From Candidatus Saccharimonadota bacterium (GTDB lineage: Bacteria > Patescibacteriota > Saccharimonadia > CAILAD01 > GCA-016700035), in assembly GCA_046350755.1 (NCBI GenBank), contig JAXLZV010000001.1:340790-404789 (forward strand): DNA of 64,000 nucleotides, written 5' to 3'. The translations under genes and the position numbers were made by a program. This document shows, piece after piece, positions 2,795 through 57,293 of the stretch (positions are counted from its first letter, which is position 1; each line of letters starts with the position of its first letter). The notes beneath the pieces were generated by a model, which was not told the origin of the DNA, did not search any database, and saw nothing but the letters and a program-made list of their open reading frames with translations.

Positions 2795-3551
2795 CCGCCT
2801 TCTCGATGATGGTCGCGAAGCTCTTGTAATTCACGCTTGCGCCGCCCACCAATAAGCCAGCGCAGTCATTTAGCTTGAGGTAGCTCGCCGCGTTCGTGCC
2901 ATCCACACTGCCACCATAGAGTAGTGGCACCGAAGCAGCTAAGACTCCAGAATACTCCGTGCCAAGCCAAGAGCGAATATATTCCAGCATTTCGCGGGCG
3001 TCTTCTGGCTTCGCGTTCTCGCCCGTCCCGATGGCCCATACCGGCTCATAAGCAATGACGATATCAGCGACTTCCTCTTCGGTCAGCAGCGATAGGCCGG
3101 TATCGAGCTGATCGGCCACAACTTGCTTAGCATGTCCCGACACGCGATCATGCTTCGTTTCGCCAACGCAAAAAATTGGCTTCAGCCCATGCCGACGAGC
3201 GGCGCTCATCTTCTGGGCTATCAAACCATCGCGTTCGCCAAAGACGTGACGACGTTCAGAGTGACCGACGATAATATAGCTCACTAGATCAGCAACCATG
3301 CGCACGCTCATCTCGCCGGTAAAAGCCCCTTCATCAACCGGATAAGCGTTCTGGGCGCCGAGCGCAAAGCGATCATTGTGGACTAATTCCTGGCGAACAG
3401 TCGTCAAATCAAGTGCTGGTGGGCACAGTACCACTTCAACGTCATCAGGAATGCGCTTCACCTCTTTCTTCAGTCGGTTCACCAGCAAACTCGCCTCTGA
3501 GGGAGAGCAATGCATTTTCCAATTACCAATAATGTAGGTCTTCGTTGCCAT
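2784..3551 (-). CDS. tpiA: triosephosphate isomerase
   Basis: IIGNWKMH...GHSERR...CVGE...AYEPVWAIGTG...YGGSV are canonical TIM motifs. Start taken at MATKTYIIGNWKM. Confidence 0.9.
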   Translation of the reverse strand: MATKTYIIGNWKMHCSPSEASLLVNRLKKEVKRIPDDVEVVLCPPALDLTTVRQELVHNDRFALGAQNAYPVDEGAFTGEMSVRMVADLVSYIIVGHSERRHVFGERDGLIAQKMSAARRHGLKPIFCVGETKHDRVSGHAKQVVADQLDTGLSLLTEEEVADIVIAYEPVWAIGTGENAKPEDAREMLEYIRSWLGTEYSGVLAASVPLLYGGSVDGTNAASYLKLNDCAGLLVGGASVNYKSFATIIEKADAA

Positions 3552-6273: not shown

Positions 6274-6708
6274 ATGGCCGCTCGTCAACTCACCGAAGCT
6301 GAATTAGTTGAAAAACTCGAAAGTAAAAAAACCAAACTCAATATCTATCGGGTCGTAACTTATATTACGTACGCCTTTATCTTTATCGCCATCGTCACAT
6401 TGAGCTTCCGTATCCTCTTTCTACTTTTCTCAGCAAATCCAAGTACTCCATTCGTGAATTGGATTTATAACATCTCGTCCGACTTCATGAAGCCGTTCCG
6501 CGGCATCTTCCCCACCAAACCAGTCGGCGAAACTGGCTACCTGGATGCTTCAGCCCTGTTTGCCCTGATGATGTACAGCATCCTCGGAGCAGTTGTTAAA
6601 GGCATCATGGATCGCCTGGAGACCTCACAGTCGATCGTCAAAGAAGAGCTTTACCGACGCGAAGGCAAAGAAGTGTTGTTGGCTGATAAACCCCGCAATC
6701 AGCGCTAG
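6274..6708 (+). CDS. membrane protein, function unknown
   Basis: 144 aa with two hydrophobic helices. RBS-like AAGGAATCATT before the ATG. Followed by a strong terminator. Confidence 0.5.
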   Translation: MAARQLTEAELVEKLESKKTKLNIYRVVTYITYAFIFIAIVTLSFRILFLLFSANPSTPFVNWIYNISSDFMKPFRGIFPTKPVGETGYLDASALFALMMYSILGAVVKGIMDRLETSQSIVKEELYRREGKEVLLADKPRNQR

Positions 6709-6722
6709 CACGCCAGCTATAT

Positions 6723-6757
6723 AAAAACACCCTTGCGTGAGGCAGGGGTGTTTTTAG
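6723..6757. terminator. bidirectional rho-independent terminator
   Basis: AAAAACACCCTTGCGTGAGGCAGGGGTGTTTTT: GC-rich hairpin flanked by an A-tract and a T-tract, lying between convergent genes. Confidence 0.7.
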
Positions 6758-6769: not shown

Positions 6770-7549
6770 CTACGGTCGTAATGAACCAGCAAAGATCTGC
6801 CAAGCCAAGGCCGATTTGGCCACCAGCGACAGAATAACATAGACTTTTTCACCGTAGAGATAATCCTTCCACGGTCCAACCTTTTTATATTGGAGGACCA
6901 TATTGATCGCAAAGCAGTTGAAGAAAGTGAAGATCGAGACATAAATCCAGTAAACAAAGGTTGGAATTTGCGCCCCCTCAGGACCATAGGTTGATGATGC
7001 CCAAAAATAGATGCCGATCACTACCCAAGGAATAATCCCGGCTAAACAGCCTAGCCAATACGCGACCCAATTGATTTTCGGTGACGTCTGATTCCATAAC
7101 TCCATCACCAGACCGCAAAGATTCATAATCGCCACGAGCGAGAACATCATCACCAGCGAGGCGAGGTCATAAATGCCAGTTAAGAGCGAGATAGCCACGA
7201 TCATCGTGCTAGCCGAGAGTGAATACTCGAGCCACCGATAGCGGTTGATACCGCGCTTGAGATCAGCATTATACTGACGATTCCCGACAGTGGCGATGAT
7301 GAGATGGAAGGTCGCGGACAGCAGCAGGAATATAATTACTGGCGCCACCAAAGGAATTTTCCAGAGTTGCTCAACAGCTGGATCAAGCGCTTTAGTCACA
7401 AAGTTAAACTTCAGAAAACTAACATTAATCGGGTAGGTTACGTCCCACTTGGCGATCGATGCCATTAAAATAGCCTGCACGGCGTGCAGTCCAGCCATCG
7501 CCAGATTCCAACGCTTCAGTGATTGGGTTGTAGTTTTTTTCGCTGCCAT
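6770..7549 (-). CDS. heliorhodopsin (HeR)
   Basis: 259 aa, 7 TM. Motifs RWLEYSLSASTMIVAISLL...FSLVAIMN...GCLAGIIPWVVIGIYF...YGEKVYVILSLVAKSALAWQIFAGSL closely parallel characterised heliorhodopsin 48C12 (RWVEYSLSSSVMIV... / ERAYIVLSLVAKSALAWQIFSGVL). The putative Schiff-base Lys sits in SLVAKSALAWQ. Confidence 0.85.
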   Translation of the reverse strand: MAAKKTTTQSLKRWNLAMAGLHAVQAILMASIAKWDVTYPINVSFLKFNFVTKALDPAVEQLWKIPLVAPVIIFLLLSATFHLIIATVGNRQYNADLKRGINRYRWLEYSLSASTMIVAISLLTGIYDLASLVMMFSLVAIMNLCGLVMELWNQTSPKINWVAYWLGCLAGIIPWVVIGIYFWASSTYGPEGAQIPTFVYWIYVSIFTFFNCFAINMVLQYKKVGPWKDYLYGEKVYVILSLVAKSALAWQIFAGSLRP

Positions 7550-7603
7550 CTCATCCTCGTATTATGGCTTTAGCATAGCCGCTTTGGAGAATGAAACGCA
7601 AGT

Positions 7604-8611
7604 CTAAACTGAGCGCGGTTGTTTCACGGGCAAATGCACCCGAAAAGTTGACCCCTTACCCAGAGTGCTGCTGACAGAAATCACGCCATGGTGGCTATCG
7701 GCGATGTGCTTAGCTATCGACAAGCCCAGGCCATTGCCCTCCGTATTGGCCGACGAGCGGCTTGGATCACCGCGATAGAAACGTTCAAAAACATGGGGCA
7801 AATCGACCGCAGCAATACCCGCACCAGTATCTTCTACAATAATTTCTGCCTGCCGATTCCGCTGCTGGGTTGCGACCCGAATGGTCGCTTTGGCGGGACT
7901 ATATTTGATCGCATTATCAACCAGTATAGAAATCAATTCACTCAAAGCCTTAGCATCACCCTCGCAATGAGCCGGCTTCAAATCAGTCGTCAGCTTGATC
8001 TTTTTAGCTTGAGCAAGCTTGGCTAATCGCCCGACCACTTCGTCAGCTAATCGAGCGATATCCACCTTCACCCGTACCTGGGGAGCCTCACCGTTGCGAG
8101 CCAACTGCAGCAGCCCATTCACGAGCTCTCGCATTTTTACGACTTCTTCGAGATTGCTACTCAATTGGTGGCGGGCATCCTGCAGGCTGAGCTGCTTATC
8201 GCGCAGAGCCACTTCCGTCTCTGATTGCATAGCCGTCAACGGTGTCCGTAGTTCGTGTGAAGCATCGGCCGTAAAACGACGTTGCGCCTCCAATGCCTCC
8301 TCAATCGGTCGAATATTACGCTTGGCCAGCATATAGCTCAGTCCGCCACCAACAAATACCACCAGTATATTAAAGAGAATTAAATTAGCCTTGACGCCCT
8401 GTTCAGCCTCACGAATGCGACCCAAGCGGTCATTTTCGTAGGTATCAAAGTAGGCATAGCCGCGTAAGTCCAGCACTGATGGCGGACGACGCAGGCCACG
8501 ATTGATTTGATCGACTGACACGCGATAGACAAATATCGAAAAGCCCAGCGATAACAGCATTACAAACGCCAAGTACCAAATAGTCAGCTTCAGAGCTGGT
8601 GTCAATTTCAC
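7604..8611 (-). CDS. sensor histidine kinase
   Basis: Two N-terminal TM segments, an H-box (ASHELRTPLT), and N/G1/G2 boxes (DNAIKYS, DTGAGI, GLGLSIAK). Confidence 0.85.
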   Translation of the reverse strand: MKLTPALKLTIWYLAFVMLLSLGFSIFVYRVSVDQINRGLRRPPSVLDLRGYAYFDTYENDRLGRIREAEQGVKANLILFNILVVFVGGGLSYMLAKRNIRPIEEALEAQRRFTADASHELRTPLTAMQSETEVALRDKQLSLQDARHQLSSNLEEVVKMRELVNGLLQLARNGEAPQVRVKVDIARLADEVVGRLAKLAQAKKIKLTTDLKPAHCEGDAKALSELISILVDNAIKYSPAKATIRVATQQRNRQAEIIVEDTGAGIAAVDLPHVFERFYRGDPSRSSANTEGNGLGLSIAKHIADSHHGVISVSSTLGKGSTFRVHLPVKQPRSV

Positions 8612-9288
8612 GACTGTGGTTCACCAATCGAATAACCAAAGCCGCGCGAGGTACGAATCAGCGGTTCAGCTTTAAACGGTTGATCAATTTTTTTACGGAG
8701 ATAGCCGATAAACACTTCGACGTTATTTGGCAACACATCAGTATCATATTCCCAAACGTGATCAATCAACTTTTCCTTTGAGAAGACCTGGCCTGGGTGG
8801 CGCATCAAATACTCCAGCAGCGCAAATTCTTTCTGCGAGAGATGTATCGACTGGCCAGCTCGCGAGACGCGAAAAGCCACCGGATCAAGTTCCAGGTCGG
8901 CGACCTTCAGGACGGCATCATGCGTGGTCGCTGGCCGACGCATCAGCGCCCGCATCCGAGCTAAGAGCTCCTCAAACGCAAACGGCTTGACGAGATAATC
9001 ATCGGCGCCGGCATTAAGGCCCTCAACGCGATCACCCACCTGATCCTTAGCGGTCAACATCAATATCGGTACATTCTTACCCTGCTCTCGCAACTGGCGG
9101 CAGATCTCCATACCATCCACGCCCGGCAACATCCGATCGAGCAGAATCAGATCATAGTCATCGGCTTCTGCAGCCGCCAGACCATCGTCACCGTCGAGCG
9201 CTAATTCCACCGCAAAGCGCTCCTGCTCGAGACCTTTTTTCAATGCCCCGGCGATCTTCGGCTCATCTTCAATTACGAGAACTTTCAT
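8608..9288 (-). CDS. OmpR-family response regulator
   Basis: MKVLVIEDEPKI...DLILLDRMLPGVDG receiver domain plus a winged-helix C-terminus. Stop overlaps the kinase start by 4 nt. Confidence 0.9.
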   Translation of the reverse strand: MKVLVIEDEPKIAGALKKGLEQERFAVELALDGDDGLAAAEADDYDLILLDRMLPGVDGMEICRQLREQGKNVPILMLTAKDQVGDRVEGLNAGADDYLVKPFAFEELLARMRALMRRPATTHDAVLKVADLELDPVAFRVSRAGQSIHLSQKEFALLEYLMRHPGQVFSKEKLIDHVWEYDTDVLPNNVEVFIGYLRKKIDQPFKAEPLIRTSRGFGYSIGEPQS

Positions 9289-9334
9289 ACTAATAGTATT
9301 GTACGCCCTTCTGAAATTTTCCTGAAGAACAGCA

Positions 9335-9366
9335 AATCGGTTCGCGTGAGGGAACGCGAACCGATT
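9335..9366 (-). terminator. rho-independent terminator hairpin
   Basis: AATCGGTTCGCG-tgagggaa-CGCGAACCGATT, a 12-bp perfect stem between the LTXXQ gene and the response-regulator gene. Confidence 0.6.
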
Positions 9367-9399
9367 GATACGGTAAGACTTCTCTAGTGTTATTTACTC

Positions 9400-9918
9400 T
9401 TACTGGGTAGCTGGAGCATCATCAGAGTCCATCATGTGATGACCCATGCCCATACCCATGCCTGGTCCATGACCACCACGGCCACCTGGGCCCGGCATCA
9501 CATACTCTACTGGGATATTGTTATCCTTAGCCCACTGTTCAAGTTCAGTGCGCCGAGACTCCATGGCTGCCTGGCGTTCAGCTTCAGTCATATTCTGAAA
9601 CTTTTCACGATCAGTTTTACGATTAGCCTCCATCTCGTCATGTTTAGCTATGAGCTTATCTTTTTGCTCATTCGTCAGCTTGCCAGCCGATACGGCTGCC
9701 TGGAGCTTGGCTTCGTAGCGCTTCTCCATCTGCGCGTGACGATCCTGGTGATCTTGATCGATCACCTGCTGCACTTCAGAAGGGTTGAGATTAAACTTGG
9801 TCGCAATCTTGTTAGCTAGTCCGGTTTCGCCAGTGGCGGCCGAGACTGAGCCAACGCCCACAACGGTTGCGATGCCCAGTGCTGCTACAGCAGCAGCAAT
9901 CATCTTCTTCTTATTCAT
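9400..9918 (-). CDS. secreted LTXXQ-motif (CpxP/Spy/ZraP-like) protein with Gly/Met/His-rich tail
   Basis: Signal peptide (MNKKKMIAAAVAALGIATVVGVGSVSA). LTNEQKDKL motif and helical repeats. C-terminus GPGMGMGMGHHMMD suggests metal binding. Confidence 0.6.
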   Translation of the reverse strand: MNKKKMIAAAVAALGIATVVGVGSVSAATGETGLANKIATKFNLNPSEVQQVIDQDHQDRHAQMEKRYEAKLQAAVSAGKLTNEQKDKLIAKHDEMEANRKTDREKFQNMTEAERQAAMESRRTELEQWAKDNNIPVEYVMPGPGGRGGHGPGMGMGMGHHMMDSDDAPATQ

Positions 9919-9969
9919 ATATTACTCCCTTAACACTGAGTATGTTACGCCCCAAATCTGAAAGGTCGC

Positions 9970-10548
9970 TTAGAATGCCAGACTTTTTGGCAGTTGGGCA
10001 CTCCAAGCCGATCGTACAGCTGATACACCATGTTCGCCTTCGGCTAATTTCACAAACTCGACCAGCGCCAGAGCGTCATCATACGCTCGATGCCGCTTAT
10101 GCACAGTGATATTATGTCGATCAATCACAGCAGCCAAACGATGCGACTGATATTGTGGATACAACCGACGAGACAACTTCACCGTGCACAGTCGCGGCGT
10201 CGTCAAAGCCCGGTCAAGCCGCTGATACTCGGCAGCGATAAAACTATAATCAAAGGCCACATTATGAGCTACAAAGTAACCGCCGGCCAGTAGGTCAGCC
10301 AGCTTATCTGCGATCGACTGAAAACTCGGCGCACCCCATTGATCGCCCTCGCGAATGCCGGTCAAGCTGGTGATAAATGGCGGTACCGGCTCGCCAGCGT
10401 CAATCAGGGTGTTGATCGTACTGACGATCTTGCCGCCCTCTACGCGGATAGCTGCTAACTCAAGCACCCGACTGCCGGTGGGGCTCCCACCAGTCGTTTC
10501 GATATCCACAAAGACGAGCGGTCGCTCGGTCAACTCACCCTGCTGCAT
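9970..10548 (-). CDS. DEDD-family 3'-5' exonuclease (DnaQ/epsilon-like)
   Basis: LVFVDIETTG (Exo I), YFVAHNVAFDYSF (Exo II) and HRAYDDA (Exo III) motifs. Start chosen at MQQGEL. Confidence 0.8.
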   Translation of the reverse strand: MQQGELTERPLVFVDIETTGGSPTGSRVLELAAIRVEGGKIVSTINTLIDAGEPVPPFITSLTGIREGDQWGAPSFQSIADKLADLLAGGYFVAHNVAFDYSFIAAEYQRLDRALTTPRLCTVKLSRRLYPQYQSHRLAAVIDRHNITVHKRHRAYDDALALVEFVKLAEGEHGVSAVRSAWSAQLPKSLAF

Positions 10549-10662
10549 ATCTCCAGTATATCCCGAACACAATACGAATAAAAGCTCTCATCAGTAGACC
10601 GGTCATGGCTCGCCCGTGCACCCCAGCTTGCAACTGCTCAAAAACTCCCTACACTTAATCAT

Positions 10663-11625: not shown

Positions 11626-11791
11626 TACCAGCGGCCGATAAGGGTCGGACTCAAATCTTGTCCTGTTAATAAAAAAGACCCAATCTTGGCAGATGAGTCT
11701 CTTATGGTGAACCTAAAGGGTACTCATTCCGAAATCTTTTATTGTGAACTGGAGGAGCTAGCGAATCAACTCACTGCTCAGGAGAATCACA

Positions 11792-12271
11792 ATGTTTAGG
11801 TTGCTCCGTAAGACGCCAAAGGCCGTGTTAACAAACACCTCGCTATACAACGAGCAATCCTTCTATAACGCATTTGTGCGAGATGTGAAAAGAGCACAAT
11901 CAGCGGTAGTTATTGAAAGCCCGTTCTTGACCGAAAAAAGAGCGCTGTACTTTTCAGGGCTATTCAATAAACTGACCAGAAAAGGTGTGAAAATTCGAGT
12001 AAACACCCGAAATCCACGTCACCATGATAAGCTGCTGGAGATACAAGCCTGGAAATCCATCAGAATCCTTAGAGATAACGGTGTCAAAGTCTATTTCTTT
12101 AATGATATGCGTCACCGCAAGCTTGCAATTATTGATGGTCGAATATTATGGGAAGGTTCACTGAACATTTTGTCACAAGTACTCAGTCGAGAAATTATGC
12201 GTCGTACTAATTCGATTGAGCTAGCTCATCAGATGATTCAGTTTACAAAGATTAACAACAGGTTCTGGTGA
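11792..12271 (+). CDS. phospholipase D-family (single HKD) Nuc-like protein
   Basis: Perfect HxK(x)4D(x)6GSxN motif: HRKLAIIDGRILWEGSLN. A 159-aa single-domain protein like Nuc-type endonucleases. AT-rich codon usage. Confidence 0.75.
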   Translation: MFRLLRKTPKAVLTNTSLYNEQSFYNAFVRDVKRAQSAVVIESPFLTEKRALYFSGLFNKLTRKGVKIRVNTRNPRHHDKLLEIQAWKSIRILRDNGVKVYFFNDMRHRKLAIIDGRILWEGSLNILSQVLSREIMRRTNSIELAHQMIQFTKINNRFW

Positions 12272-12289
12272 TATACTAGAGGTTCAAGT

Positions 12290-12487
12290 ATGCACAATGA
12301 ATACCACATCAATGAAGAAGACATAGCAAAGATTATTAAGTATCTTAAGTTTGAAGATCCTGATAATGCTAACCGTGAATATGCAATTCAGCTTATTGAG
12401 TCAATGCAGATAAGTGGCAACGAAATAGCACGATCAGATGAAGCTTTAGCTGAAGCTATCAGGAAGTACACCCAGAAGAAAAATTAG
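12290..12487 (+). CDS. small acidic hypothetical protein
   Basis: 65-aa ORF 19 nt downstream of the PLD gene. AT-rich. Confidence 0.35.
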   Translation: MHNEYHINEEDIAKIIKYLKFEDPDNANREYAIQLIESMQISGNEIARSDEALAEAIRKYTQKKN

Positions 12488-12489
12488 AA

Positions 12490-12705
12490 CTAATTCGGAA
12501 AGATATCCGACGCCTTAACGCCTAAAACAGCAAATATTTCATACAATGTTTCGACTGATGCAATAGCAGCCCCTTGTTCCAGGGTTGCGTAGTAATTAGT
12601 AGAGAGTCCTACTTTCTCGGCAATTTCTCTCTGGGTGTAACGCCTTGCCTTGCGAGCTTTTTGCAGATTAGTCCCAATTGCTTTTCTCAGTTTAACTTCG
12701 TTCAT
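12490..12705 (-). CDS. XRE-family helix-turn-helix transcriptional regulator
   Basis: LQKARKARRYTQREIAEKVGLSTNYYATLEQG is a classic HTH_3 motif. Confidence 0.8.
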   Translation of the reverse strand: MNEVKLRKAIGTNLQKARKARRYTQREIAEKVGLSTNYYATLEQGAAIASVETLYEIFAVLGVKASDIFPN

Positions 12706-12799
12706 GTTCCTGTAGACTTATTAGAAATATCGTATACGAACTGTATCATATATTGTGTAGTATATCTACTGGTTTCTCAGTTGACGTCGGATGGTAGTA

Positions 12800-13378
12800 C
12801 TAGGTGGAAATAACTACCTTTTGGTAGACGTTGAGTAGAGGATCCATGCCGCCCTCAAAAGCACGTTTATCTGCATCAATAAGCTCACCAGCAGATACTT
12901 GGCTATAATCAAGCAGGTAGCCAGCATGATCCGCAAGTAGAATTAAGAACAAACGAATTGTCCGACCATTGCCTTCTCGAAAGGGATGTAGAGCATTAAG
13001 TTCAGCCGCTAATCTGGTAATCTCTTTAATGAAGGTCTGCTTACCTAGATCAGCAAGATACTGCTTGCCACGTAAATCCTCAAAGATTCGTTCGCCCTCA
13101 ACAATAATGAACGGAGCGTGAGCAAACGGCACGCTACTATCTGCCTTGGCTATATCGACTGTACGGATTTTGCCAGCAAAGTCGTATATATCTTCAAACA
13201 GAATCTTATGGAGATATTTCAAGTAATTAAAATCAAACTGGGTAGGCGGTTTCTCGGTAAGTAGCCTGGCTGTCTTCTTTGTGACGATATCCTGTTCGGC
13301 ATCCTGCAGGGCTTTCGGATCAGAAATACCAAGCTTGTTTTCCAGTACGCTGTCATCATCAGTAAAGTAGTCCGTCAC
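12800..13378 (-). CDS. Fic/Doc-family protein (putative AMPylating toxin)
   Basis: Fic active-site motif HPFREGNGRTIR. Starts with GTG at 13376-13378. Confidence 0.85.
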   Translation of the reverse strand: MTDYFTDDDSVLENKLGISDPKALQDAEQDIVTKKTARLLTEKPPTQFDFNYLKYLHKILFEDIYDFAGKIRTVDIAKADSSVPFAHAPFIIVEGERIFEDLRGKQYLADLGKQTFIKEITRLAAELNALHPFREGNGRTIRLFLILLADHAGYLLDYSQVSAGELIDADKRAFEGGMDPLLNVYQKVVIST

Positions 13379-13382
13379 GGAA

Positions 13383-13511
13383 CTACTTCTTTGTTGCGCT
13401 AGTCATCTGTTTTTCAAGCGTTTTTTTGACAGTCTGAAAATCAAATCCCTCGGCTTCCATACTACGAGCGATACTGGCTATCAAGCGTTGCTTTTTTTCG
13501 GTCTGACTCAT
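13383..13511 (-). CDS. small Fic-inhibitory antitoxin (42 aa)
   Basis: ATG at 13509-13511 gives MSQTEKKQRLIASIARSMEAEGFDFQTVKKTLEKQMTSATKK. It contains the [S/T]xxxE[G/N] inhibitory motif (SMEAEG) of class I Fic antitoxins. Ends 5 nt before the Fic start. Confidence 0.55.
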   Translation of the reverse strand: MSQTEKKQRLIASIARSMEAEGFDFQTVKKTLEKQMTSATKK

Positions 13512-13714
13512 AGCTATATTATATCATAAATGGAAAACCTCTATTGCTATTTACGAGGAGCCATACAGAGCCCCACAACAGAGGAATTACTACCACTGTT
13601 ATTCTACCATAAGCATAGTGCTTATGTCGCAGCTGACTGTTTTTGCGTTTTTGTCATTTTGTTGCCTAGCTATTGCCTCCTTAGACCACCTCTGTTACTC
13701 TTTATGCAATCAGA

Positions 13715-16306
13715 TTGGAAACTACAGGAGCTGCCATGACTGATGATACTGGTGGGCAGATAGTTGAAAGACTACAAACCATTTTACCGTGGTTAGGACT
13801 CCTTGTTGCGTCAATCACTATTCTGGTTTTCGTTATTGGCCTTATCCTCAGACTCTATAACTACTACCGAAAGTACAACCAAGAAGCAGTTTTACTTGAG
13901 TTAACACCACTCGGCTTTACTAACAAAGCTCCACTTGCCACCACTCAGTTATTCTCAGTACTGCATGGTCTGCTGAAATCACGGAGTTTTAAGGATGCAA
14001 TTTTACGCTATGTGCCGTCATTCTCGCTGGAGATAGTATCAACCAAAGACAAAGGTATTCGCTACCTAATACGGTCAAGCAAAGCCAATGAAGAGCTTAT
14101 CCGGCAGGCAGTTGCTGCCTACAGCCCCGATGTTAAGGTTCGAGTCGTGAAAGATAGTCATGAAGCCAAAGGCTTTATGGCTCTCCAAGCCTACAAACAA
14201 ACTGAACACTACGCCATGCCCCTGGATACCTCAAAGTCCCTGCATGAGCACGACCCTGTAGCTTACTTAACCAGCTCTATGACCAAGCTTGAAGATAATG
14301 AACAGGTTAGCCTGCAACTGGTTGTCACACCAGCTGTTATATCTGAAGCCTTTGCGATTGACCGTAAGATACGTCAGGGTTACTGGTCTGGATCAAGTCT
14401 TGAGAAAAAGTTTGGTCATAAAAGTATCTTTCGCATCCTCTTTGCCATTGTAAAACTACCATTCGTAATTGCCTGGAGTATGTTATACGGTTTTCTCTAT
14501 CACGATATACCGGCTAGCTCAAAAGCTACTAACAATGTACCAACAAATACCCATATACCTCCGGCCGAACAAGAACTGCTGGACCGAATGCATGATAAGC
14601 TCACTCAAGATCTCTTCTATGTTGATGTACGGACTCAGATTGTAGCGACAGATAAAACCCGAGCCAAGTCCAGAGCCCAATCACTAGCTAACTCAATGGC
14701 TACCTATGCCACGCCAACCTGGCAAAGACTACGAACCACCAGAGCTTGGATACCGTGGCTTGGTGTGCTACATCGGATATGGGTACTCGATCATCGCTTG
14801 CCGTCACTAGTGCATAGAAATAGTAATGTTTTAAGCTCGACTGAACTGAGTGCCTTATACCATTTCCCTCATAGTACGTCAGCTCGCACTGAAAATGTCG
14901 CTAGGTCACTCAGCAAAACCTTGCCAGCACCAACCTCTCTCAAGAGTGCAAAGTATCTTGATGTGACCTTAGGCAAGAACAGTCACCTTGGCAGCGAAAC
15001 CTTAATAGGCCTCACTGAGGCTGAACGTGAACGGCATGTCTATATTATTGGCGGAACCGGAAACGGTAAAACCACTATGCTTCAGTACGGTATCGTTCAA
15101 GATATTAAAGATGGTAAGGGATTAGCCGTCATTGACCCACACGGAGATATGGCGTTAACACTACTCAAATACATACCGAAAGATCGCATCAAAGACGTTA
15201 TTTACTTTAATCCTGACGATATTGACCACCCACTGGCAATGAACCTGTTGGAAATACCAGACGGTCTGATTGGCAGTGCGCTGGAGCGAGAAAAAGACCG
15301 GGTAACCGAATCAGTCATCTCAGTACTGCGTAAAATATTCTCCGACGATGATTCAGGAGGACATCGGATTGAGTATGTACTTCGAAATGCCATCCAAACA
15401 GCCCTAACAACTGATAATCCCACTATCTTCACGATCTTTGAACTACTCACTAACGACAACTACCGTAAGAAAATAACCAATGCCCTGCCAGCCGGAACCT
15501 TAAAGAACTTCTGGCAGAACGAACTCGGTAAAGCCGGTGCCATGCAACGAGTTAAGATGAGTCACGGTGTCACATCCAAGATTGGCCGCTTTGAATTCTC
15601 ACCAAGTACTAAACGAGTAATGGGTCGACCAAGATCGACCATCGACTTCGATGATATCTTGTCTTCGGGTAAAATCCTGATCTGTAACTTCAGTAAAGGT
15701 AACCTGGGGGAGGATACGTCAGAGCTATTTGGTACAGCTGTGCTGGCTAAACTACAGCTAGCAGCTCTCAGACGATCTCGATTAGCTCAAGATGAACGAG
15801 AACCGTTCTACCTCTATGTTGATGAGTTTCAGAACTTCGCGACTATGCCGTTTGTGCAGATGCTGAGTGAGGCTCGCAAATACAAACTATTCCTGACCAT
15901 GGCTGAACAGTCTACAGCCCAGCAGAATGAGCAACGGTTAGTACAGATAATCTTAGCTAATGTCGGTACAGTTATAAGTTTTAGGACTGGTAGTCCGGTA
16001 GATGAGCAATTAGTATTGCCGTTATTTAGGCCATTTATTGATGAAGGCGAGATAGCTAATTTACCAAGCTACAATTTCTATGCCAGGCTGAGTGCTATAC
16101 GGTCCCAGGAACCGATGTCTGGGGAGACTATGTTACTGGAAGATAAGGGAGATAAGGCTATGGCTCGGAAAGTCATAGAGTCTTCGAGGAAGTTGTATGC
16201 GTATGAGTATGAAGATGCAGCGGAGAAAAAAGTGAATAAAACCGAGTCTCATGAAACACAAGACGCTAAAGATAATGACTCGGAAGATGAGCCGATTAAG
16301 GTGTAG
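13715..16306 (+). CDS. VirD4/TraD-like coupling-protein-type P-loop ATPase with N-terminal membrane domain
   Basis: 863 aa with an N-terminal TM helix. Walker A YIIGGTGNGKTT, AVIDPHGD, and Walker B LYVDEFQNF, as in T4SS coupling proteins. Acidic C-terminal tail. Confidence 0.6.
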   Translation: METTGAAMTDDTGGQIVERLQTILPWLGLLVASITILVFVIGLILRLYNYYRKYNQEAVLLELTPLGFTNKAPLATTQLFSVLHGLLKSRSFKDAILRYVPSFSLEIVSTKDKGIRYLIRSSKANEELIRQAVAAYSPDVKVRVVKDSHEAKGFMALQAYKQTEHYAMPLDTSKSLHEHDPVAYLTSSMTKLEDNEQVSLQLVVTPAVISEAFAIDRKIRQGYWSGSSLEKKFGHKSIFRILFAIVKLPFVIAWSMLYGFLYHDIPASSKATNNVPTNTHIPPAEQELLDRMHDKLTQDLFYVDVRTQIVATDKTRAKSRAQSLANSMATYATPTWQRLRTTRAWIPWLGVLHRIWVLDHRLPSLVHRNSNVLSSTELSALYHFPHSTSARTENVARSLSKTLPAPTSLKSAKYLDVTLGKNSHLGSETLIGLTEAERERHVYIIGGTGNGKTTMLQYGIVQDIKDGKGLAVIDPHGDMALTLLKYIPKDRIKDVIYFNPDDIDHPLAMNLLEIPDGLIGSALEREKDRVTESVISVLRKIFSDDDSGGHRIEYVLRNAIQTALTTDNPTIFTIFELLTNDNYRKKITNALPAGTLKNFWQNELGKAGAMQRVKMSHGVTSKIGRFEFSPSTKRVMGRPRSTIDFDDILSSGKILICNFSKGNLGEDTSELFGTAVLAKLQLAALRRSRLAQDEREPFYLYVDEFQNFATMPFVQMLSEARKYKLFLTMAEQSTAQQNEQRLVQIILANVGTVISFRTGSPVDEQLVLPLFRPFIDEGEIANLPSYNFYARLSAIRSQEPMSGETMLLEDKGDKAMARKVIESSRKLYAYEYEDAAEKKVNKTESHETQDAKDNDSEDEPIKV

Positions 16307-16336
16307 CAAGCCATAGAGCCACCACAAAATATACCG

Positions 16337-16514
16337 TAAGAGTCAGCGAACAGCTAGCCCGTTGCCCCGAGGAGCGTTGTTGCCTGGATTGACTTCTCCA
16401 GCATTGAAGTTCGCGTTGTCTGCGTTGTCGACATTGTCTGGGAAGGCTGAACGAGACCACAAGTTAGCGTTGTCACCCTGGTTGTCGAAGCCCTCGTCCC
16501 AGTTGCCAGCAAAA
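16337..16514 (-). repeat. DGR template repeat (TR)
   Basis: Non-coding copy, ~95% similar to 18626-18803. Holds the unmutated adenines (T on + strand) at most differing positions. Lies 3' of the RT gene. Confidence 0.75.
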
Positions 16515-16741
16515 CCCGGAACACACCACCGGACTACCTTACAATACTACTCATTATCCTGCACTCAGCGTACCGAATGCAGGCAGGTCTTGGTGGCACT
16601 TCCTCTCTAGAACTAGCCTTCGTCAAGTCAAGGCTAGTGAGTACTGTCTCTTACATATGCTTATCTGCCTGACTGCTCGCCGTGTAACAAGCAATAGTTG
16701 CCACCAAGCATTACCCGGTTGCCGCCAAGCAAAGCATACTG

Positions 16742-17848
16742 TTATTGTACCCCCCCCCGAAGTTTTAAACCACCAAGAAGCTTTTTGTGTTTATAATGCT
16801 TCACCAGCCCTCGATACGATGCTTCGGTTTCTTTTGAGCAATCCGGGTTCGAAAGTGCCGCTAGTAAGTTGCGTTTCAAGCGTTTGCCTGGGTGCAAGCG
16901 AAATGGGTAGACAACCGCCCCAAGAAAGGCCACACCACGGCTACATTCCTGCAAGTGTCGCTTGTGGGGGTGTAGTTTTAGTGACAACTGACCCTCTACA
17001 TAGCGCTCTATTGTCCTGGCAGCTTCAACCAGTTCATTTTTATCACTAGAGACGATATAGAAATCATCAACGTAGCGTCCATAGTGTTTGAAGCCTAATT
17101 CTAGCGTTACAAACCAATCTAGTTGGTCAAGATAGATATTACTCAGTAGCTGTGAGGTTAGGTTGCCGATGGCAATACCACGGCCTTTGGGCTGGTGAAA
17201 CAAACTCTTGCTGGGCGGCAGACCTTTCCAAGCACTACGCGGACAGTTGAACACTGCCTCTTTCAGTGGGTCGTTAAAGATAATGACTTTCCACAAAAAC
17301 TTACACAATTGGTAGGCGTAGCCCTGATTAGGAAACTGCCGATTCAGTCCCCACATGGCCCGGCTGTAGAGCTTTTTGCGCTCCAGACTCATGAAGTATC
17401 CCTGAAAATCAAGCTTTAGTATGTAGGCTGGACGAGTGTAGTTACGACTGACTGAACGAATGTGGTGGTCAAGCCGACGAATACCATACAGTGTGCCCTT
17501 GCCGAGACGGCAGCTGTAGTTATCTTCAATAAACCGGGCATCCCACCAACTACTTACTTGGTTGAACAAAAAGTGATGCACGACTCGGTCACGAAAGGCA
17601 GCTGCAAATATCTCTCGTTTGATGGGTTTGTTGACAATAAAGGCTGTTGAGGGCCGTGGCGTGTAGGTACGCGTATGAATTTCGTGTGCCAGTGCCACCA
17701 GTTCTGATTTGGCAATTTTGTCGAACTTTTCCACTTCTGGCTTCTTTGTTTTACCACGTCGGGCGTCTACATAAGCTTTCCCGAGTTCTTTTGAGAGCCA
17801 CGCAGTACGGTTGTGTTGGGTGTTTGTTTTCATTGTGTTTGCTGACAA
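16742..17848 (-). CDS. DGR-type reverse transcriptase
   Basis: RT motifs: RDRVVHHFL, ILKLDFQGYF, the DGR hallmark IGNLTSQLLSNIYL, and YGRYVDDFYIV. 368 aa. Confidence 0.85.
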   Translation of the reverse strand: MSANTMKTNTQHNRTAWLSKELGKAYVDARRGKTKKPEVEKFDKIAKSELVALAHEIHTRTYTPRPSTAFIVNKPIKREIFAAAFRDRVVHHFLFNQVSSWWDARFIEDNYSCRLGKGTLYGIRRLDHHIRSVSRNYTRPAYILKLDFQGYFMSLERKKLYSRAMWGLNRQFPNQGYAYQLCKFLWKVIIFNDPLKEAVFNCPRSAWKGLPPSKSLFHQPKGRGIAIGNLTSQLLSNIYLDQLDWFVTLELGFKHYGRYVDDFYIVSSDKNELVEAARTIERYVEGQLSLKLHPHKRHLQECSRGVAFLGAVVYPFRLHPGKRLKRNLLAALSNPDCSKETEASYRGLVKHYKHKKLLGGLKLRGGVQ

Positions 17849-17916
17849 ATTTTATTTTGAATCTAGACAACTCGGTTAAAAGATTAGTTTTAGATCTGCT
17901 GCCCCCTCGGCTTACG

Positions 17917-18177
17917 TTAGCCGTATAACTGACTATGCGTACCAACCATTTGGTACAAAAATACCTCGTTATCTACAATTTCATACAGTGCTCGTAAGTC
18001 ACCTGTTATATCGATGCTGTAGAAACGGCTCATCTTGCCACTAAGTTTATGTAACCGAAGTGACTCGTCATTGGGCTTTTGCGACCAGAGCCTTATGGCG
18101 TCTGTGGTTTTTTGTTGCATCTTTGGAGTGAGTTTTTTGTACTGTTTTCTGAATTTTTTACTATACCTTATAGTCAT
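17917..18177 (-). CDS. RelE/YafQ-family toxin
   Basis: 86 aa. The C-terminus ...LYQMVGTHSQLYG parallels YafQ ...RTGTHAALFG. Overlaps the upstream antitoxin by 4 nt. Confidence 0.7.
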   Translation of the reverse strand: MTIRYSKKFRKQYKKLTPKMQQKTTDAIRLWSQKPNDESLRLHKLSGKMSRFYSIDITGDLRALYEIVDNEVFLYQMVGTHSQLYG

Positions 18178-18485
18178 TTTTCATTAAGCCACGCAAAGCT
18201 TTCTTCAACATTATTAAAAGCAGGCGAATAATCATCTAGCTCACCAGCACGTACTTTTTTTGACATAGCCAGTAATTCGGCCTCCACTTCTGGCCTAAGC
18301 CGTGGCGAATCCGATATAGTTATGCTCCGGGTATTAACGAACTCTCGCAAACTGGCAGCTACCACTATACTCATAGGCAAGCCGAGCTCTTTGGCAACAC
18401 TCTGAGCCCTCTTTTTTAGAGCGGGATCAATTTTTACATTCAATACAGTACTCATACTAACCATTGTATACACTTTAGTTAGCAT
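18174..18485 (-). CDS. DinJ/RelB-family antitoxin
   Basis: LNVKIDPALKKRAQSVAKELGLPMSIVVAASLREFV resembles the DinJ N-terminal ribbon-helix-helix (VRARIDEDLKNQAADVLAGMGLTISDLVRITL). Confidence 0.7.
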   Translation of the reverse strand: MLTKVYTMVSMSTVLNVKIDPALKKRAQSVAKELGLPMSIVVAASLREFVNTRSITISDSPRLRPEVEAELLAMSKKVRAGELDDYSPAFNNVEESFAWLNEK

Positions 18486-18541
18486 GTCAATACATAGATT
18501 TTGTTATTTTCGTTTGCTGGGCAGCCCAGTCGACTCGGCGG

Positions 18542-18565
18542 GGTTAGGGGTGGTCACCCCTAACC
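18542..18565 (-). promoter_or_regulatory. GC-rich hairpin downstream of VR (candidate DGR homing hairpin)
   Basis: GGTTAGGGG-tggtca-CCCCTAACC lies ~60 nt 3' of the VR end, as DGR target genes often show. Confidence 0.4.
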
Positions 18566-18619
18566 GCCCGGGCCTCGCTTTGTGGACAACCCAGAAATTA
18601 GCCCCAGATAAATCTGAGC

Positions 18620-20047: not shown

Positions 20048-20136
20048 GGTCGGCTCCTTTCTTGTTTAGTTATATTTGTAGCTTTATCTATTGAAATAAA
20101 CTGCTTACGTATATAGTACAGGAGATGGTTTGGAAT

Positions 20137-20868
20137 TCAAATAATATACACCCCTTTCTCTGTCACTCGTATGTTTACACTAGCATAGCTACGATCCAAT
20201 GCTTTCTCAACCAGCCTTCCCACTGTCTTTTCAAGTTTGGCTGACTCACATATGAGCAATACTTCTGGATGCAGCTTCCTAGGCTTGTATTTATGCCATA
20301 CCTCCAGCTCTGCAAAAGTAATGTACTTCCGTACTGTTTTCCGCAGTGTCCAGTAGGTCATATTATCTTCCAAACACTCAAGAAAGTAAGATTTATCTGT
20401 CTCTTTGTCTACTATGTATGCGTCTGGTCTAGTTTTAGGTACGTAGGCTTTGTCCATAAGCTCCGTCTTGCTATAGAACTTAAATCTATTAGGATAGGTA
20501 TGTTTGAGCTGTATATATGCCTTGAAGACATTCAGTCGGTGATTAATTCTGTGATCTTCAGCTCGTTTATCGTGGTAGATGCTTCTAAGTGCCGATTCAT
20601 TGCTGTATGGTTGTGTTCGTAAGAATCGTACGCCTTTGGTTGCTAAGTAATATGTAGCCGGTTTGCCTTTAAGCATGTAGCTACTATTATAGTTCATACC
20701 AATATAGCCTTGATCTACTAATATCTTTAACCTATTGGATATTACTCTAGGGTTAGCCTGTTGGTTCTTGGCAAATAAAGCTATGGTTGTAAATCTAAAC
20801 TTATAGAGTGTGTTAAGGATAGTAATTTGCTGAGGGTTTAATGGTCGTCGGTATTTTGGTTCTCTCAC
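20137..20868 (-). CDS. replication-relaxation-like protein (mobile-element associated), tentative
   Basis: N-terminal QQITILNTLYKFRFTTIALF resembles the replication-relaxation family signature (L..L..FRFLT..QI). AT-rich. Confidence 0.4.
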   Translation of the reverse strand: MREPKYRRPLNPQQITILNTLYKFRFTTIALFAKNQQANPRVISNRLKILVDQGYIGMNYNSSYMLKGKPATYYLATKGVRFLRTQPYSNESALRSIYHDKRAEDHRINHRLNVFKAYIQLKHTYPNRFKFYSKTELMDKAYVPKTRPDAYIVDKETDKSYFLECLEDNMTYWTLRKTVRKYITFAELEVWHKYKPRKLHPEVLLICESAKLEKTVGRLVEKALDRSYASVNIRVTEKGVYII

Positions 20869-21063
20869 TACTTCATCTGCTCCTATACGTAGTATAGGTA
20901 ATTATATAACAATAACGCACAGATATAACAGATTAGAAATGATGATATAGGTATCCTAATGGTAAGATATCCACAATTGTAAATATTACTCGGTATATAC
21001 TCTTGAACTAACGCTATATTCTATAGTAAACTATAGCTATAATCAATAGTTTACGAGGGTATC

Positions 21064-21177
21064 ATGACTAATGAAATATCGACTAGTGCAGTAGAAAGGG
21101 ACGAACAGATCGAGCTACTAGCGGATATTTTACTTGAGCTGGTACTTGAGGAGAATCAGGATGATATCAGCTCGTAA
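21064..21177 (+). CDS. small acidic ORF (37 aa) upstream of recombinase, tentative
   Basis: GAGGG RBS 4 nt before ATG; MTNEISTSAVERDEQIELLADILLELVLEENQDDISS. Overlaps the recombinase start. Confidence 0.25.
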   Translation: MTNEISTSAVERDEQIELLADILLELVLEENQDDISS

Positions 21178-22870: not shown

Positions 22871-22904
22871 AAATCTGGTGTCCTAACCGTTAGACGATGG
22901 GGCC
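22830..22904 (-). tRNA. tRNA-Glu (anticodon TTC)
   Basis: GGCCCCATCGTCTAACGGTTAGGACACCAGATTTTCAATCTGG...TTCGATTCTCCGTGGGGTCACCA. Cloverleaf with a 7-bp acceptor stem; CCA encoded. Confidence 0.8.
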
Positions 22905-29086: not shown

Positions 29087-29105
29087 ATGTACTTCAGTAT
29101 ACCTG

Positions 29106-44692: not shown

Positions 44693-44733
44693 CTTTCAGG
44701 AATTTCTCATAATATACTTGCTACACTAAAAGC

Positions 44734-57266: not shown

Positions 57267-57293
57267 ACTGAATTTTAGGCAAACCAAACAAAC

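What the first reader, a model, noticed from the sequence alone, without database searches (positions are those of the whole stretch)
6770..9918. Heliorhodopsin co-oriented with a two-component system and a metal-binding-like LTXXQ periplasmic protein
ORF 6770-7549 shows the heliorhodopsin signature. It matches characterised HeR nearly motif for motif, including RWLEYSLSASTMIV and LSLVAKSALAWQIF with the putative retinal-binding Lys.
- 54 nt upstream on the same strand lies a histidine kinase, then a response regulator (4-nt overlap between them).
- Beyond a hairpin is an LTXXQ (CpxP/Spy/ZraP-like) secreted protein with a GMGMGMGHHMM tail.
- No retinal biosynthesis genes (blh, crtEBIY) are present in the window.

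HeR function is still unresolved, so a HeR physically linked to a signalling pair is a useful lead. This holds only if the genes are co-transcribed. A possible own promoter (TTGCGT-18-TATGCT) exists in the 54-nt gap.
Basis: partly seen in the sequence, partly recalled or inferred. Interest (0 to 1): 0.7.

Follow-up and report, generated by a model that had tools for sequence, protein, structure and literature searches.

The report
Heliorhodopsin beside a conserved envelope two-component system
A genuine light-sensing heliorhodopsin gene in a Saccharibacteria genome lies directly after a signalling gene pair, but comparison with relatives suggests they are inherited neighbours with separate promoters, and this kind of neighbourhood is already published.

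Summary
All four genes are on the minus strand:
- a secreted 172-aa protein (9918..9400), followed by a terminator hairpin
- an OmpR-type regulator (9288..8608)
- a histidine kinase (8611..7604, 4-nt overlap with the regulator)
- after a 54-nt gap, a heliorhodopsin, HeR (7549..6770, Pfam E=5e-94, all key residues kept)

The organism is a Candidatus Saccharibacteria.
- HeR directly after the kinase occurs only in the nearest relatives.
- In other relatives an opposite-strand gene, an ABC transporter or about 3.7 kb separates them.
- The same secreted-protein/regulator/kinase/pyruvate-kinase block also exists with no HeR.
- Every HeR in the clade has its own sigma70-like promoter box, TTGCGT-18-TATGCT here.
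- A conserved direct repeat (YTMAG-N6-TYCAG), the likely regulator site, precedes the secreted-protein gene and the regulator gene. It never precedes HeR.
- The secreted protein is not a CpxP/Spy/ZraP member by Pfam, NCBIfam, PDB profile or fold search. It belongs to a Patescibacteria-only family with one LTxxQ motif.
- Missing retinal genes are normal for Saccharibacteria.
- HeR-kinase proximity, including in Patescibacteria, was published in 2021.

Interest is low to moderate. In passing I found a clear diversity-generating retroelement at 16.3-20 kb.

The parts
9958..9973 (-). Candidate regulator-binding direct repeat (CTAAG-N6-TTCAG) in front of the secreted-protein gene. It overlaps the stop codon of the upstream RNase T gene, and a -10-like TAACAT lies at 9947..9942.
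   Evidence: The same box is conserved upstream of orthologous genes in L002, L105, L107 and L108, with a 10-nt spaced variant in L101. Its PWM score is 15.2 bits, but it was part of the training set. Coordinates checked.
9400..9918 (-). Secreted 172-aa helical protein from a Patescibacteria-specific family. It has one (L/I)TxxQ motif and a Gly/His/Met-rich tail.
   Evidence: No Pfam or NCBIfam family matched; the best was DUF2680 at E=0.016, below cutoff. About 110 homologues exist, all named hypothetical. Alignment A2 shows K80, T82 and Q85 as nearly invariant. The AF2 model has helices at 34-41, 46-77, 83-107 and 112-132, with pLDDT above 90 in the core. There was no specific fold match.
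9335..9366 (-). Intrinsic-terminator-like hairpin after the secreted-protein gene.
   Evidence: 13-bp stem. Fold energy -24.5 kcal/mol, z=-2.8. Orthologous loci have different hairpin sequences at the same place.
9311..9326 (-). Candidate regulator box TTCAG-N6-TTCAG, 7 nt upstream of the -10 TACAAT (9303..9298). The ATG lies 9 nt after the -10, so the mRNA is probably leaderless.
   Evidence: Conserved in 9 orthologous loci with the same spacing to the -10 and to the ATG. It is the only intergenic exact match in the window. PWM score 16.5 bits.
8608..9288 (-). OmpR/PhoB-type response regulator, 226 aa, with phospho-acceptor D51.
   Evidence: Response_reg at E=1.4e-31 and Trans_reg_C at E=7.7e-27. 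No NCBIfam equivalog reached its cutoff; the best was the heavy-metal regulator subfamily at 243 bits against 279. D51 confirmed.
7604..8611 (-). Membrane histidine kinase, 335 aa. TM segments at about 9-30 and 75-96, an outside loop of about 44 aa, no HAMP domain, His box at H119.
   Evidence: HisKA and HATPase_c domains. Hydropathy and His box. Thousands of full-length homologues of about 330 aa at 46-64% identity, annotated CiaH-like in Saccharibacteria.
7572..7601 (-). HeR's own sigma70-like promoter: TTGCGT (7601..7596), 18-nt spacer, TATGCT (7577..7572). It sits 22 nt before the ATG and starts 2 nt after the kinase stop codon.
   Evidence: The hexamers are conserved while the spacer diverges in the window, L001, L004 and L108. 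Related boxes occur in L002, L003, L107 and L101. In L004, L101 and L103 the upstream gene is on the opposite strand, so a promoter must lie there.
6770..7549 (-). Heliorhodopsin, 259 aa, with H22, H82, E108, S241 and K245.
6722..6756 (.). Terminator hairpin between the convergent HeR and YggT genes, flanked by A and T runs, so probably bidirectional.
   Evidence: Fold energy -25.1 kcal/mol, z=-3.0. Sequence.

Best explanation
Three transcription units lie side by side in a Candidatus Saccharibacteria genome.

1. A monocistronic gene for a small secreted helical protein, closed by a terminator.
2. A regulator-kinase operon. Units 1 and 2 each carry a conserved direct repeat (YTMAG-N6-TYCAG) just upstream of their -10 box. 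This is most likely the site of the OmpR-type regulator. Together they form an autoregulated cell-envelope signalling module that is widespread in Saccharibacteria. In relatives the module also drives or adjoins MacB-type ABC transporter and cell-wall genes.
3. A heliorhodopsin gene with its own conserved promoter and terminator.

The heliorhodopsin is a functional-looking retinal photoreceptor. It must use retinal scavenged from other organisms. By analogy with tested HeRs it most likely acts by light-dependent contact with a partner protein. Its position after the kinase is best explained as inherited synteny inside a conserved kinase-to-pyruvate-kinase block, not as a dedicated light-signalling operon. 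Some read-through from the kinase gene is possible here because the 54-nt gap has no terminator.

Shown: gene identities, key residues, synteny patterns, conserved promoter and box motifs.
Inferred: promoter activity, regulator binding, the HeR mode of action and its partner.
For: - HeR identity and residues.
- Synteny: the block RNase T / secreted protein / regulator / kinase / variable region / pyruvate kinase / TIM / pyrophosphatase recurs. HeR is directly after the kinase in the window, L002, L003, L107 and L111-114. It lies behind an opposite-strand gene of about 200 aa in L101-L104. It lies behind ABC transporter genes in L001 and 3.5-3.7 kb away in L004 and L108. It is absent from the block in L105/L106.
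- Own promoter: TTGNNN-17/18-TATNNT lies 22-38 nt before the HeR start in 8 of 9 loci, whatever the upstream gene.
- Regulator box: conserved before the regulator gene in 9 loci and before the secreted-protein gene in 5-6 loci. It also precedes the hypothetical-protein/ABC operon of L001.
- No box upstream of HeR: the best same-strand PWM scores are -2 to 7 bits, against 14-22 for the sites and a background maximum per 150 nt of 1.4 +/- 3.3.
- Terminators after the secreted-protein gene and after HeR; none in the 54-nt gap.
- Published work: Saccharibacteria lack blh and are proposed to take up retinal (PMC9296517). One study counted 80 HeRs in Saccharimonadia with the SLVAK motif (PMC9166423). 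HeRs regulate partner proteins by direct binding (PMC11109279).
Against: - The 54-nt same-strand gap with no terminator would usually be scored as operonic.
- HeR stays within 4 kb or less of this two-component system in every clade member examined that has HeR. That could reflect selection rather than descent.
- The kinase has only a short outside loop and no HAMP domain. Such kinases often depend on an accessory membrane protein for input.
- The promoter and box calls are consensus and footprint inferences from related, non-independent genomes. No transcript data were available.
- The box sites were chosen by eye and used to build the PWM.
Confidence: 0.55

Rival explanations
1. HeR is the light-input subunit of the adjacent kinase. 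Photoactivated HeR contacts the two-helix membrane domain of the HAMP-less kinase, as sensory rhodopsin II contacts HtrII. This changes phosphorylation of the regulator, which puts the secreted protein and other envelope genes under light control.
For: - Same strand, 54-nt gap, no terminator.
- Direct adjacency kept in L002, L003, L107 and conspecifics, with HeR down to 75% and kinase down to 55% identity.
- HeR is near this two-component system in all HeR-bearing clade members examined.
- The kinase has a short loop and no HAMP domain.
- Published statistical association of HeR with HisKA and regulator genes across phyla (PMC8612252).
Against: - An opposite-strand gene or an ABC transporter separates the two genes in sister lineages, and the same module works without HeR in L105/L106.
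- HeR's own promoter is conserved.
- No regulator box precedes HeR.
- Most Saccharibacteria HeR loci have no kinase within 6 kb.
- Kinase density at 0-3 kb (8 hits in 410 kb) is not clearly above that at 3-10 kb (6 hits in 694 kb), and L001-L003 count as one lineage.
- My paper searches found no experiment showing a HeR-kinase interaction.
Confidence: 0.17
2. HeR regulates another neighbour-encoded or membrane partner, not the kinase. One candidate is a MacB-type ABC transporter, which lies directly upstream of HeR in the closest relative. Another is an enzyme of the adjacent glycolytic block.
For: - L001, the closest HeR at 83% identity, has ABC ATPase and FtsX/MacB permease genes immediately upstream of HeR with a 60-nt gap.
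- L105 has the same transporter type beside the two-component system.
- HeR-ABC transporter regulation was shown experimentally for OcHeR-OmrDE, where the partner genes also lie upstream of HeR (PMC11109279).
- Pyruvate kinase is a constant downstream neighbour.
Against: - I did not look for a MacB-type transporter in the window, and none lies between the kinase and HeR.
- OmrDE is a different ABC class (heterodimeric exporter).
- The HeR promoter box is present in L001 too, so co-transcription is not required there either.
- Nothing links HeR specifically to pyruvate kinase.
Confidence: 0.15
3. The secreted protein is a true CpxP/Spy/ZraP-family periplasmic chaperone or metal sensor that feeds back on the kinase.
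For: - It is secreted and helical, with one conserved (L/I)TxxQ motif.
- It has HxxM motifs and a Gly/His/Met tail.
- It is encoded beside, and apparently co-regulated with, the two-component system.
- The regulator's best NCBIfam score is to the heavy-metal regulator subfamily.
Against: - No Pfam LTXXQ or Metal_resist hit even at E<=5 in five orthologues.
- No NCBIfam Spy/CpxP hit.
- A profile search of PDB sequences finds no CpxP, Spy or ZraP at E<=10.
- There is one motif, not two.
- The His and Met positions and the tail are not conserved across the family.
- The regulator and kinase scores are below the heavy-metal family cutoffs.
Confidence: 0.08

Closest known systems
TaHeR, heliorhodopsin of a Thermoplasmatales archaeon (PDB 6IS6/7U55), and 48C12 HeR (PDB 6SU3)
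   Same: Full-length alignment (E=8e-73 and 3e-49). It has the same Schiff-base Lys in SxxxK, the same Glu counterion and the same two His residues. Like TaHeR it has Met rather than Gln at the 48C12 Q213 position. Like the TaHeR host, the organism lacks retinal synthesis.
   Different: The host is a bacterial CPR organism. There is a 7-residue insertion in the loop before the sixth helix relative to TaHeR. No spectroscopy has been done.
HeR-HisKA/response-regulator neighbourhoods described by Bulzu et al. 2021 (mSphere, PMC8612252)
   Same: HeR lies within a few kb of a HisKA/HATPase_c kinase and a Response_reg/Trans_reg_C regulator in a monoderm-type organism. Patescibacteria are explicitly listed there.
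   Different: Locus-by-locus comparison here shows separate promoters, intervening opposite-strand genes in sister lineages, and the same two-component block without HeR. In this clade the association therefore looks like synteny.
HeR as a partner-binding regulator: OcHeR-OmrDE ABC transporter (Nat Commun 2024, PMC11109279), plus HeR-glutamine synthetase and HeR-photolyase
   Same: The general mode of action I assume for this HeR is light-dependent protein-protein regulation of a protein that is often encoded upstream. The closest relative, L001, has ABC transporter genes directly upstream.
   Different: Two-component systems are not among the ten neighbour groups of that study. The transporter in L001 is MacB/FtsX-type, not a heterodimeric exporter.
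Sensory rhodopsin II-HtrII (type-1 sensory rhodopsin with a membrane transducer)
   Same: This is the conceptual model for the rival reading: a non-pumping rhodopsin signalling through contacts with a two-helix membrane partner that controls a histidine kinase pathway.
   Different: HeR has inverted topology and belongs to a different family. SRII and HtrII are co-transcribed and always paired. Here pairing is not conserved and the partner would be the kinase itself.
CpxP-CpxAR, ZraP-ZraSR and Spy (LTXXQ periplasmic proteins regulated by envelope two-component systems)
   Same: The genetic logic matches: a small secreted helical protein encoded next to, and apparently controlled by, an OmpR-type two-component system. 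It has one LTxxQ-like motif.
   Different: No sequence, profile or fold relationship was detectable. There is a single motif. The organism is monoderm-like. The family is restricted to Patescibacteria.
PhoB/OmpR-type autoregulated promoters with a direct-repeat box in place of the -35
   Same: Two 5-bp half sites 11 bp apart lie immediately upstream of the -10, in front of the regulator's own operon and a neighbouring target gene.
   Different: The half-site sequence (TTCAG/TTAAG) is different. The regulator transcript is apparently leaderless, with the -10 only 8-9 nt before the ATG. Binding is untested.

Membership tests
Heliorhodopsin (Pfam PF18761 / NCBIfam NF038020) | Full-length profile match above the curated cutoff | tested here: met
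   PF18761 at 314.6 bits against a cutoff of 26.7, covering profile positions 1-242 of 242. NF038020 equivalog at 318.4 bits against a cutoff of 100.
Heliorhodopsin (Pfam PF18761 / NCBIfam NF038020) | Retinal Schiff-base lysine in helix 7 within an SxxxK motif | tested here: met
   S241-L-V-A-K245 aligns with S237/K241 of 48C12. SLVAK is the commonest CPR HeR motif (PMC9166423).
Heliorhodopsin (Pfam PF18761 / NCBIfam NF038020) | Single Glu counterion in helix 3 and the His pair near it | tested here: met
   E108 aligns with E107 of 48C12; H22 and H82 align with H23 and H80.
Heliorhodopsin (Pfam PF18761 / NCBIfam NF038020) | Seven helices with inverted topology (N-terminus inside) | tested here: inconclusive
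   Hydropathy finds the later helices, and the alignment to solved HeRs is gapless through all seven. Orientation was not computed.
Heliorhodopsin (Pfam PF18761 / NCBIfam NF038020) | Binds all-trans retinal, long photocycle, no ion pumping | not testable with these tools
   Needs expression with retinal plus spectroscopy.
Rhodopsin-transducer signalling operon (HeR wired to the adjacent two-component system) | Co-transcription of rhodopsin and signalling partner | tested here: inconclusive
   There is no terminator in the 54-nt gap, but a conserved promoter lies inside it. No transcript data.
Rhodopsin-transducer signalling operon (HeR wired to the adjacent two-component system) | Adjacency conserved across lineages that carry the rhodopsin | tested here: not met
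   Direct adjacency occurs only in the window, L002, L003, L107 and conspecifics. It is broken in L001, L004, L101-L104 and L108. There is no kinase within 6 kb in almost all of about 45 other Saccharibacteria HeR loci.
Rhodopsin-transducer signalling operon (HeR wired to the adjacent two-component system) | Partner not found without the rhodopsin, or rhodopsin under control of the regulator | tested here: not met
   The orthologous module exists without HeR (L105/L106, L109, L110). No regulator box lies upstream of any HeR.
Rhodopsin-transducer signalling operon (HeR wired to the adjacent two-component system) | Physical interaction and light-dependent kinase output | not testable with these tools
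   Needs biochemistry.
CpxP/Spy/ZraP (LTXXQ, Pfam PF07813/PF13801) | Profile match to the family | tested here: not met
   No such hit at E<=5 for the window protein or four orthologues; the best was DUF2680 at E=0.016, below cutoff. None in NCBIfam. None in PDB with the family profile at E<=10.
CpxP/Spy/ZraP (LTXXQ, Pfam PF07813/PF13801) | Two LTXXQ motifs in a bent helical hairpin fold | tested here: not met
CpxP/Spy/ZraP (LTXXQ, Pfam PF07813/PF13801) | Exported, and genetically coupled to an envelope two-component system | tested here: met
   Hydrophobic N-terminal segment at 4-29. The gene is adjacent to the regulator and kinase in all orthologous loci and shares the box.
OmpR/PhoB-class two-component system | HisKA with a conserved His plus HATPase_c; receiver with a conserved Asp plus a winged-helix output domain | tested here: met
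   for the domains; H119; D51, E7/D8 and K101.
Heavy-metal (CusRS/CopRS/SilRS) two-component subfamily | Score above the NCBIfam subfamily cutoffs | tested here: not met
   Regulator at 243 bits against a cutoff of 279. Kinase at 174 bits against 292. PhoR/RppB-type models score as well or better.

The most novel reading that the evidence does not exclude
In this Saccharibacteria clade the heliorhodopsin may serve as the missing sensory input of a short-loop, HAMP-less histidine kinase. Light, together with retinal borrowed from the host, would then control an envelope regulon made up of the secreted helical protein, ABC transporter genes and cell-wall genes. The internal promoter would merely add HeR expression. 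This would be the first defined HeR-to-two-component signalling path.
Probability: 0.15. Interest if true: 0.7.

Novelty: already known. Interest (0 to 1): 0.25.

Why it matters
Heliorhodopsin function is still only partly understood, so a demonstrated HeR-to-kinase pathway would matter. This locus does not add a new kind of evidence, for three reasons.
- HeRs are already catalogued in Saccharimonadia.
- HeR-kinase proximity, including in Patescibacteria, is already published.
- The comparative data here point to neighbouring but separate transcription units.

The useful outcomes are narrower.
- A caution: HeR/two-component proximity can be plain synteny.
- A defined candidate regulator box and a Patescibacteria-specific secreted protein family, which outline a conserved envelope-signalling module in Saccharibacteria.
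- A compact set of natural variants (HeR adjacent, separated or absent) that could be used to test the signalling hypothesis.

Tried and rejected
- Metagenome scan with the kinase: one near-identical 4-kb contig and otherwise only 26-35% identical kinases, so it said nothing about orthologue context. I used protein search plus contig look-ups instead.
- Strict pattern TYMAGNNNNNNTYCAG in the window: 3 matches against 1.1 expected, and 11 of 100 shuffles did as well. The pattern count alone is not significant. The case for the box rests on positional conservation across loci.
- Kinase enrichment near HeR in 80 loci: 2.7 per 100 kb at 0-1 kb against 1.1 at 6-10 kb. The counts are 4 and 4, and two of the near hits are one lineage, so this is not significant.
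- RNA fold of the 54-nt gap: a structure pairing the HeR ribosome-binding site and ATG with upstream sequence at -18.9 kcal/mol. With z=-1.6 and 14 of 200 shuffles folding as well, I do not claim it.
- Heavy-metal sensing by this system: the best NCBIfam regulator hit is below cutoff and not discriminating, and the His/Met motifs are not conserved in the family. I did not adopt this reading.
- I considered modelling a HeR-kinase complex. The structure tool takes single chains only and the paired alignment would be too shallow, so I did not attempt it.

Full report
**What is there**

The finding's genes are all on the minus strand. In the direction of transcription the order is:
- an RNase T-like exonuclease (10572..9970)
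- a 172-aa secreted protein (9918..9400)
- a 13-bp-stem hairpin (9366..9335)
- an OmpR-type response regulator (9288..8608)
- a histidine kinase (8611..7604, GTGA overlap with the regulator)
- a 54-nt gap
- the heliorhodopsin, HeR (7549..6770)
- a strong hairpin (6756..6722)

A convergent YggT-family gene follows (6274-6708, plus strand), and then pyruvate kinase, triosephosphate isomerase and pyrophosphatase. Database relatives place the organism in Candidatus Saccharibacteria. The same species, with the same gene order, occurs in many public metagenomes.

**The heliorhodopsin is real**

It matches Pfam PF18761 over the whole model (E=5e-94) and the NCBIfam HeR equivalog (318 bits against a cutoff of 100). 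It also matches the solved TaHeR and 48C12 structures (E=8e-73 and 3e-49).

The residues that define the family are in place:
- the Schiff-base lysine K245, in the motif S241-LVA-K245
- the counterion E108
- H22 and H82

It is not a type-1 rhodopsin.

Pfam scans of every window ORF of 110 aa or more found no carotenoid or retinal synthesis family. This is expected. Rhodopsin-bearing Saccharibacteria lack blh and are proposed to take up retinal from hosts, and HeR binds external retinal quickly (PMC9296517). HeRs are common in Saccharimonadia; one survey counted 80, with SLVAK the usual motif (PMC9166423).

**The two-component system**

The kinase has HisKA and HATPase_c domains and a His box at H119. 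It has two membrane helices (about 9-30 and 75-96), a loop of about 44 residues between them, and no HAMP domain. The regulator has receiver and winged-helix domains and the phospho-acceptor D51.

No NCBIfam equivalog reaches its cutoff. Heavy-metal, PhoR and RppB-type models score similarly.

Full-length homologues of the kinase number in the thousands and are typical of Saccharibacteria. The 4-nt overlap depends on the GTG start. Public gene calls use a later ATG. The orthologue in L002 aligns from residue 1, so the long form is more likely.

**The 'LTXXQ' protein**

It has a signal-peptide-like N-terminus, one LTNEQ motif and the GMGMGMGHHMM tail. It matches no Pfam or NCBIfam family; the best hit is DUF2680 at E=0.016, below cutoff.

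About 110 homologues exist. All are unnamed, and every one that carries a source label is labelled Saccharibacteria, Patescibacteria, Parcubacteria or simply 'bacterium', apart from one labelled Limnocylindrales. Their alignment shows three features:
- a conserved N-terminal helix (KFNLN..DVQ.VFD)
- one nearly invariant K-(L/I)-T-x-x-Q
- a conserved ELEQWAKDNNIP segment, followed by a variable Gly/His/Met-rich tail

It works in a CpxP-like genetic setting but is not a member of that family.

**Is the adjacency conserved?**

I fetched 80 species-representative HeR loci and searched them for the window's neighbours.
- Only L002 and L003 (HeR 75-76% identical) have secreted protein, regulator, kinase and HeR in the same order.
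- L001, the closest at 83%, has a hypothetical gene and MacB-type ABC ATPase and permease genes between kinase and HeR.
- L004 has a divergent sortase-like gene upstream of HeR.
- Almost all of the roughly 45 other Saccharibacteria loci have no kinase or regulator within 6 kb.

I then started from kinase orthologues.
- L107 repeats the window's order.
- L101-L104 have a gene of about 200 aa on the opposite strand between kinase and HeR.
- L108 has HeR 3.7 kb downstream.
- L105/L106 (a complete 916-kb genome) have ABC transporter, secreted protein, regulator and kinase, then a small opposite-strand gene and pyruvate kinase, with no HeR.
- L109 and L110 have the regulator-kinase pair with other neighbours.

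So a block running from the two-component system to pyruvate kinase is conserved. HeR sits inside it at varying positions, or not at all.

Kinase density near HeR across the 80 loci is not clearly raised: 8 hits in 410 kb at 0-3 kb against 6 hits in 694 kb at 3-10 kb, with L001-L003 being one lineage.

**Promoters, terminators and the regulator box**

The same architecture, TTG(C/T)NN-18-TATGCT, lies 22-30 nt before the HeR start in L001, L004 and L108, although the upstream genes differ and the spacer has diverged. Related boxes are present in L002, L003, L107 and L101. In L004, L101 and L103 a promoter must exist there, because the upstream gene is on the other strand.

In front of the regulator gene, nine orthologous loci share a direct repeat, T-T-(C/A)-A-G-N6-T-(C/T)-C-A-G. 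It sits 7 nt upstream of a good -10 box, which in turn lies only 8-9 nt from the ATG. That arrangement fits a leaderless, autoregulated promoter of the PhoB/OmpR kind.

The same repeat precedes the secreted-protein gene in five or six loci. It also precedes the hypothetical-protein/ABC transporter operon in L001.

A position weight matrix built from these sites scores 14-22 bits on them. On the coding strand upstream of every HeR it scores only -2 to 7 bits, within background (1.4 +/- 3.3 per 150 nt).

The hairpins after the secreted-protein gene and after HeR fold significantly better than shuffles. The 54-nt gap does not.

**Most likely mechanism**

The secreted protein gene and the regulator-kinase operon form an autoregulated envelope module. 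This is inferred from the shared box and from the ABC transporter, LytR and PAP2 neighbours seen in relatives.

HeR is a separate unit with its own promoter, although read-through from the kinase gene is possible in this genome.

HeR itself most likely acts as a light-dependent regulator of a partner protein. Three tested HeRs do this, with glutamine synthetase, photolyase and an ABC transporter (PMC11109279).

The kinase remains a candidate partner. Its short loop and lack of a HAMP domain make an accessory sensor plausible. The comparative evidence does not favour it, however, and my paper searches turned up no experiment demonstrating a HeR-kinase interaction.

**Comparison with what is known, and novelty**

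Bulzu et al. (2021) reported histidine kinases and response regulators within 10 kb of HeRs in several phyla, including Patescibacteria. They proposed HeR as a sensory rhodopsin (PMC8612252).

What this analysis adds is that, in this clade, the association behaves like inherited synteny. I rate the interest as low to moderate.

**Seen in passing**

A low-GC island (about 11.8-22.9 kb) lies next to tRNA-Glu. It carries mobile-element genes and a clear diversity-generating retroelement.

Noticed in passing
window 16337-20047 (minus strand): A diversity-generating retroelement. A 178-nt template repeat at 16337-16514, just 3' of a reverse transcriptase gene (16742-17848), matches the 3' end (18626-18803) of a FISUMP/Fib_succ_major-domain gene (18620-20047). 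There are 32 mismatches, and 27 of them fall on adenines of the template copy. A RelB-like small ORF lies between them (18174-18485)..
   Followed up: partly
window about 11790-22904: A low-GC (41-47%) island beside tRNA-Glu (22830-22904), probably an integrated mobile element. It carries a PLD-like gene, a Fic gene, a TraG/VirD4-like coupling protein, a Replic_Relax gene and a large serine recombinase whose ORF end overlaps the tRNA. Part of it is also present in conspecific contigs..
   Followed up: partly
window 9286-9326; L002, L101, L103, L105, L107, L109, L110 upstream of the regulator gene: The regulator promoter has its -10 box only 8-9 nt before the ATG and no Shine-Dalgarno sequence, in all orthologous loci. 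This suggests a conserved leaderless mRNA..
   Followed up: partly
window 44695-44710 (plus strand), upstream of ORF 44734-45144: The next-best intergenic match to the candidate regulator box (TTCAGGAATTTCTCAT, 14.1 bits). It lies about 24 nt before a membrane-anchored protein with a weak cytochrome b5-like domain, so this gene may belong to the regulon..
   Followed up: partly
L001 626-641 and 693-3185: In the closest relative the candidate regulator box sits between the kinase stop codon and an operon encoding a 166-aa hypothetical protein, an ABC ATPase and a FtsX/MacB permease. That operon ends 60 nt before HeR. The arrangement resembles a Bce-like kinase-transporter layout..
   Followed up: partly
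L001 about 3210-3226; window about 7562-7578: A near-perfect palindrome overlaps the HeR -10 box in L001 (TTATGCTT-A-AAGCATAA). An imperfect version occurs in the window (TATGCTAAAGCCATA). It could be an operator for an unknown repressor, or it could be chance..
   Followed up: no
window 28664-31322 (minus strand): A second signalling pair: a 738-aa HisKA/HATPase_c kinase with a long N-terminal region that has no Pfam hit, and a receiver-only response regulator..
   Followed up: no
window 8560-8611; L111-L114: Public gene calls start the kinase at an internal ATG (318 aa). That removes part of the first membrane helix and creates a 48-nt gap after the regulator gene. Conservation in L002 from residue 1 favours the 335-aa GTG start..
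   Followed up: partly
window 55125-61302 (plus strand): A type IV pilus gene cluster: PilB-like ATPase, PilC, a prepilin with an N-methylation motif, and PilM, PilN and PilO. This is typical of Saccharibacteria..
   Followed up: no
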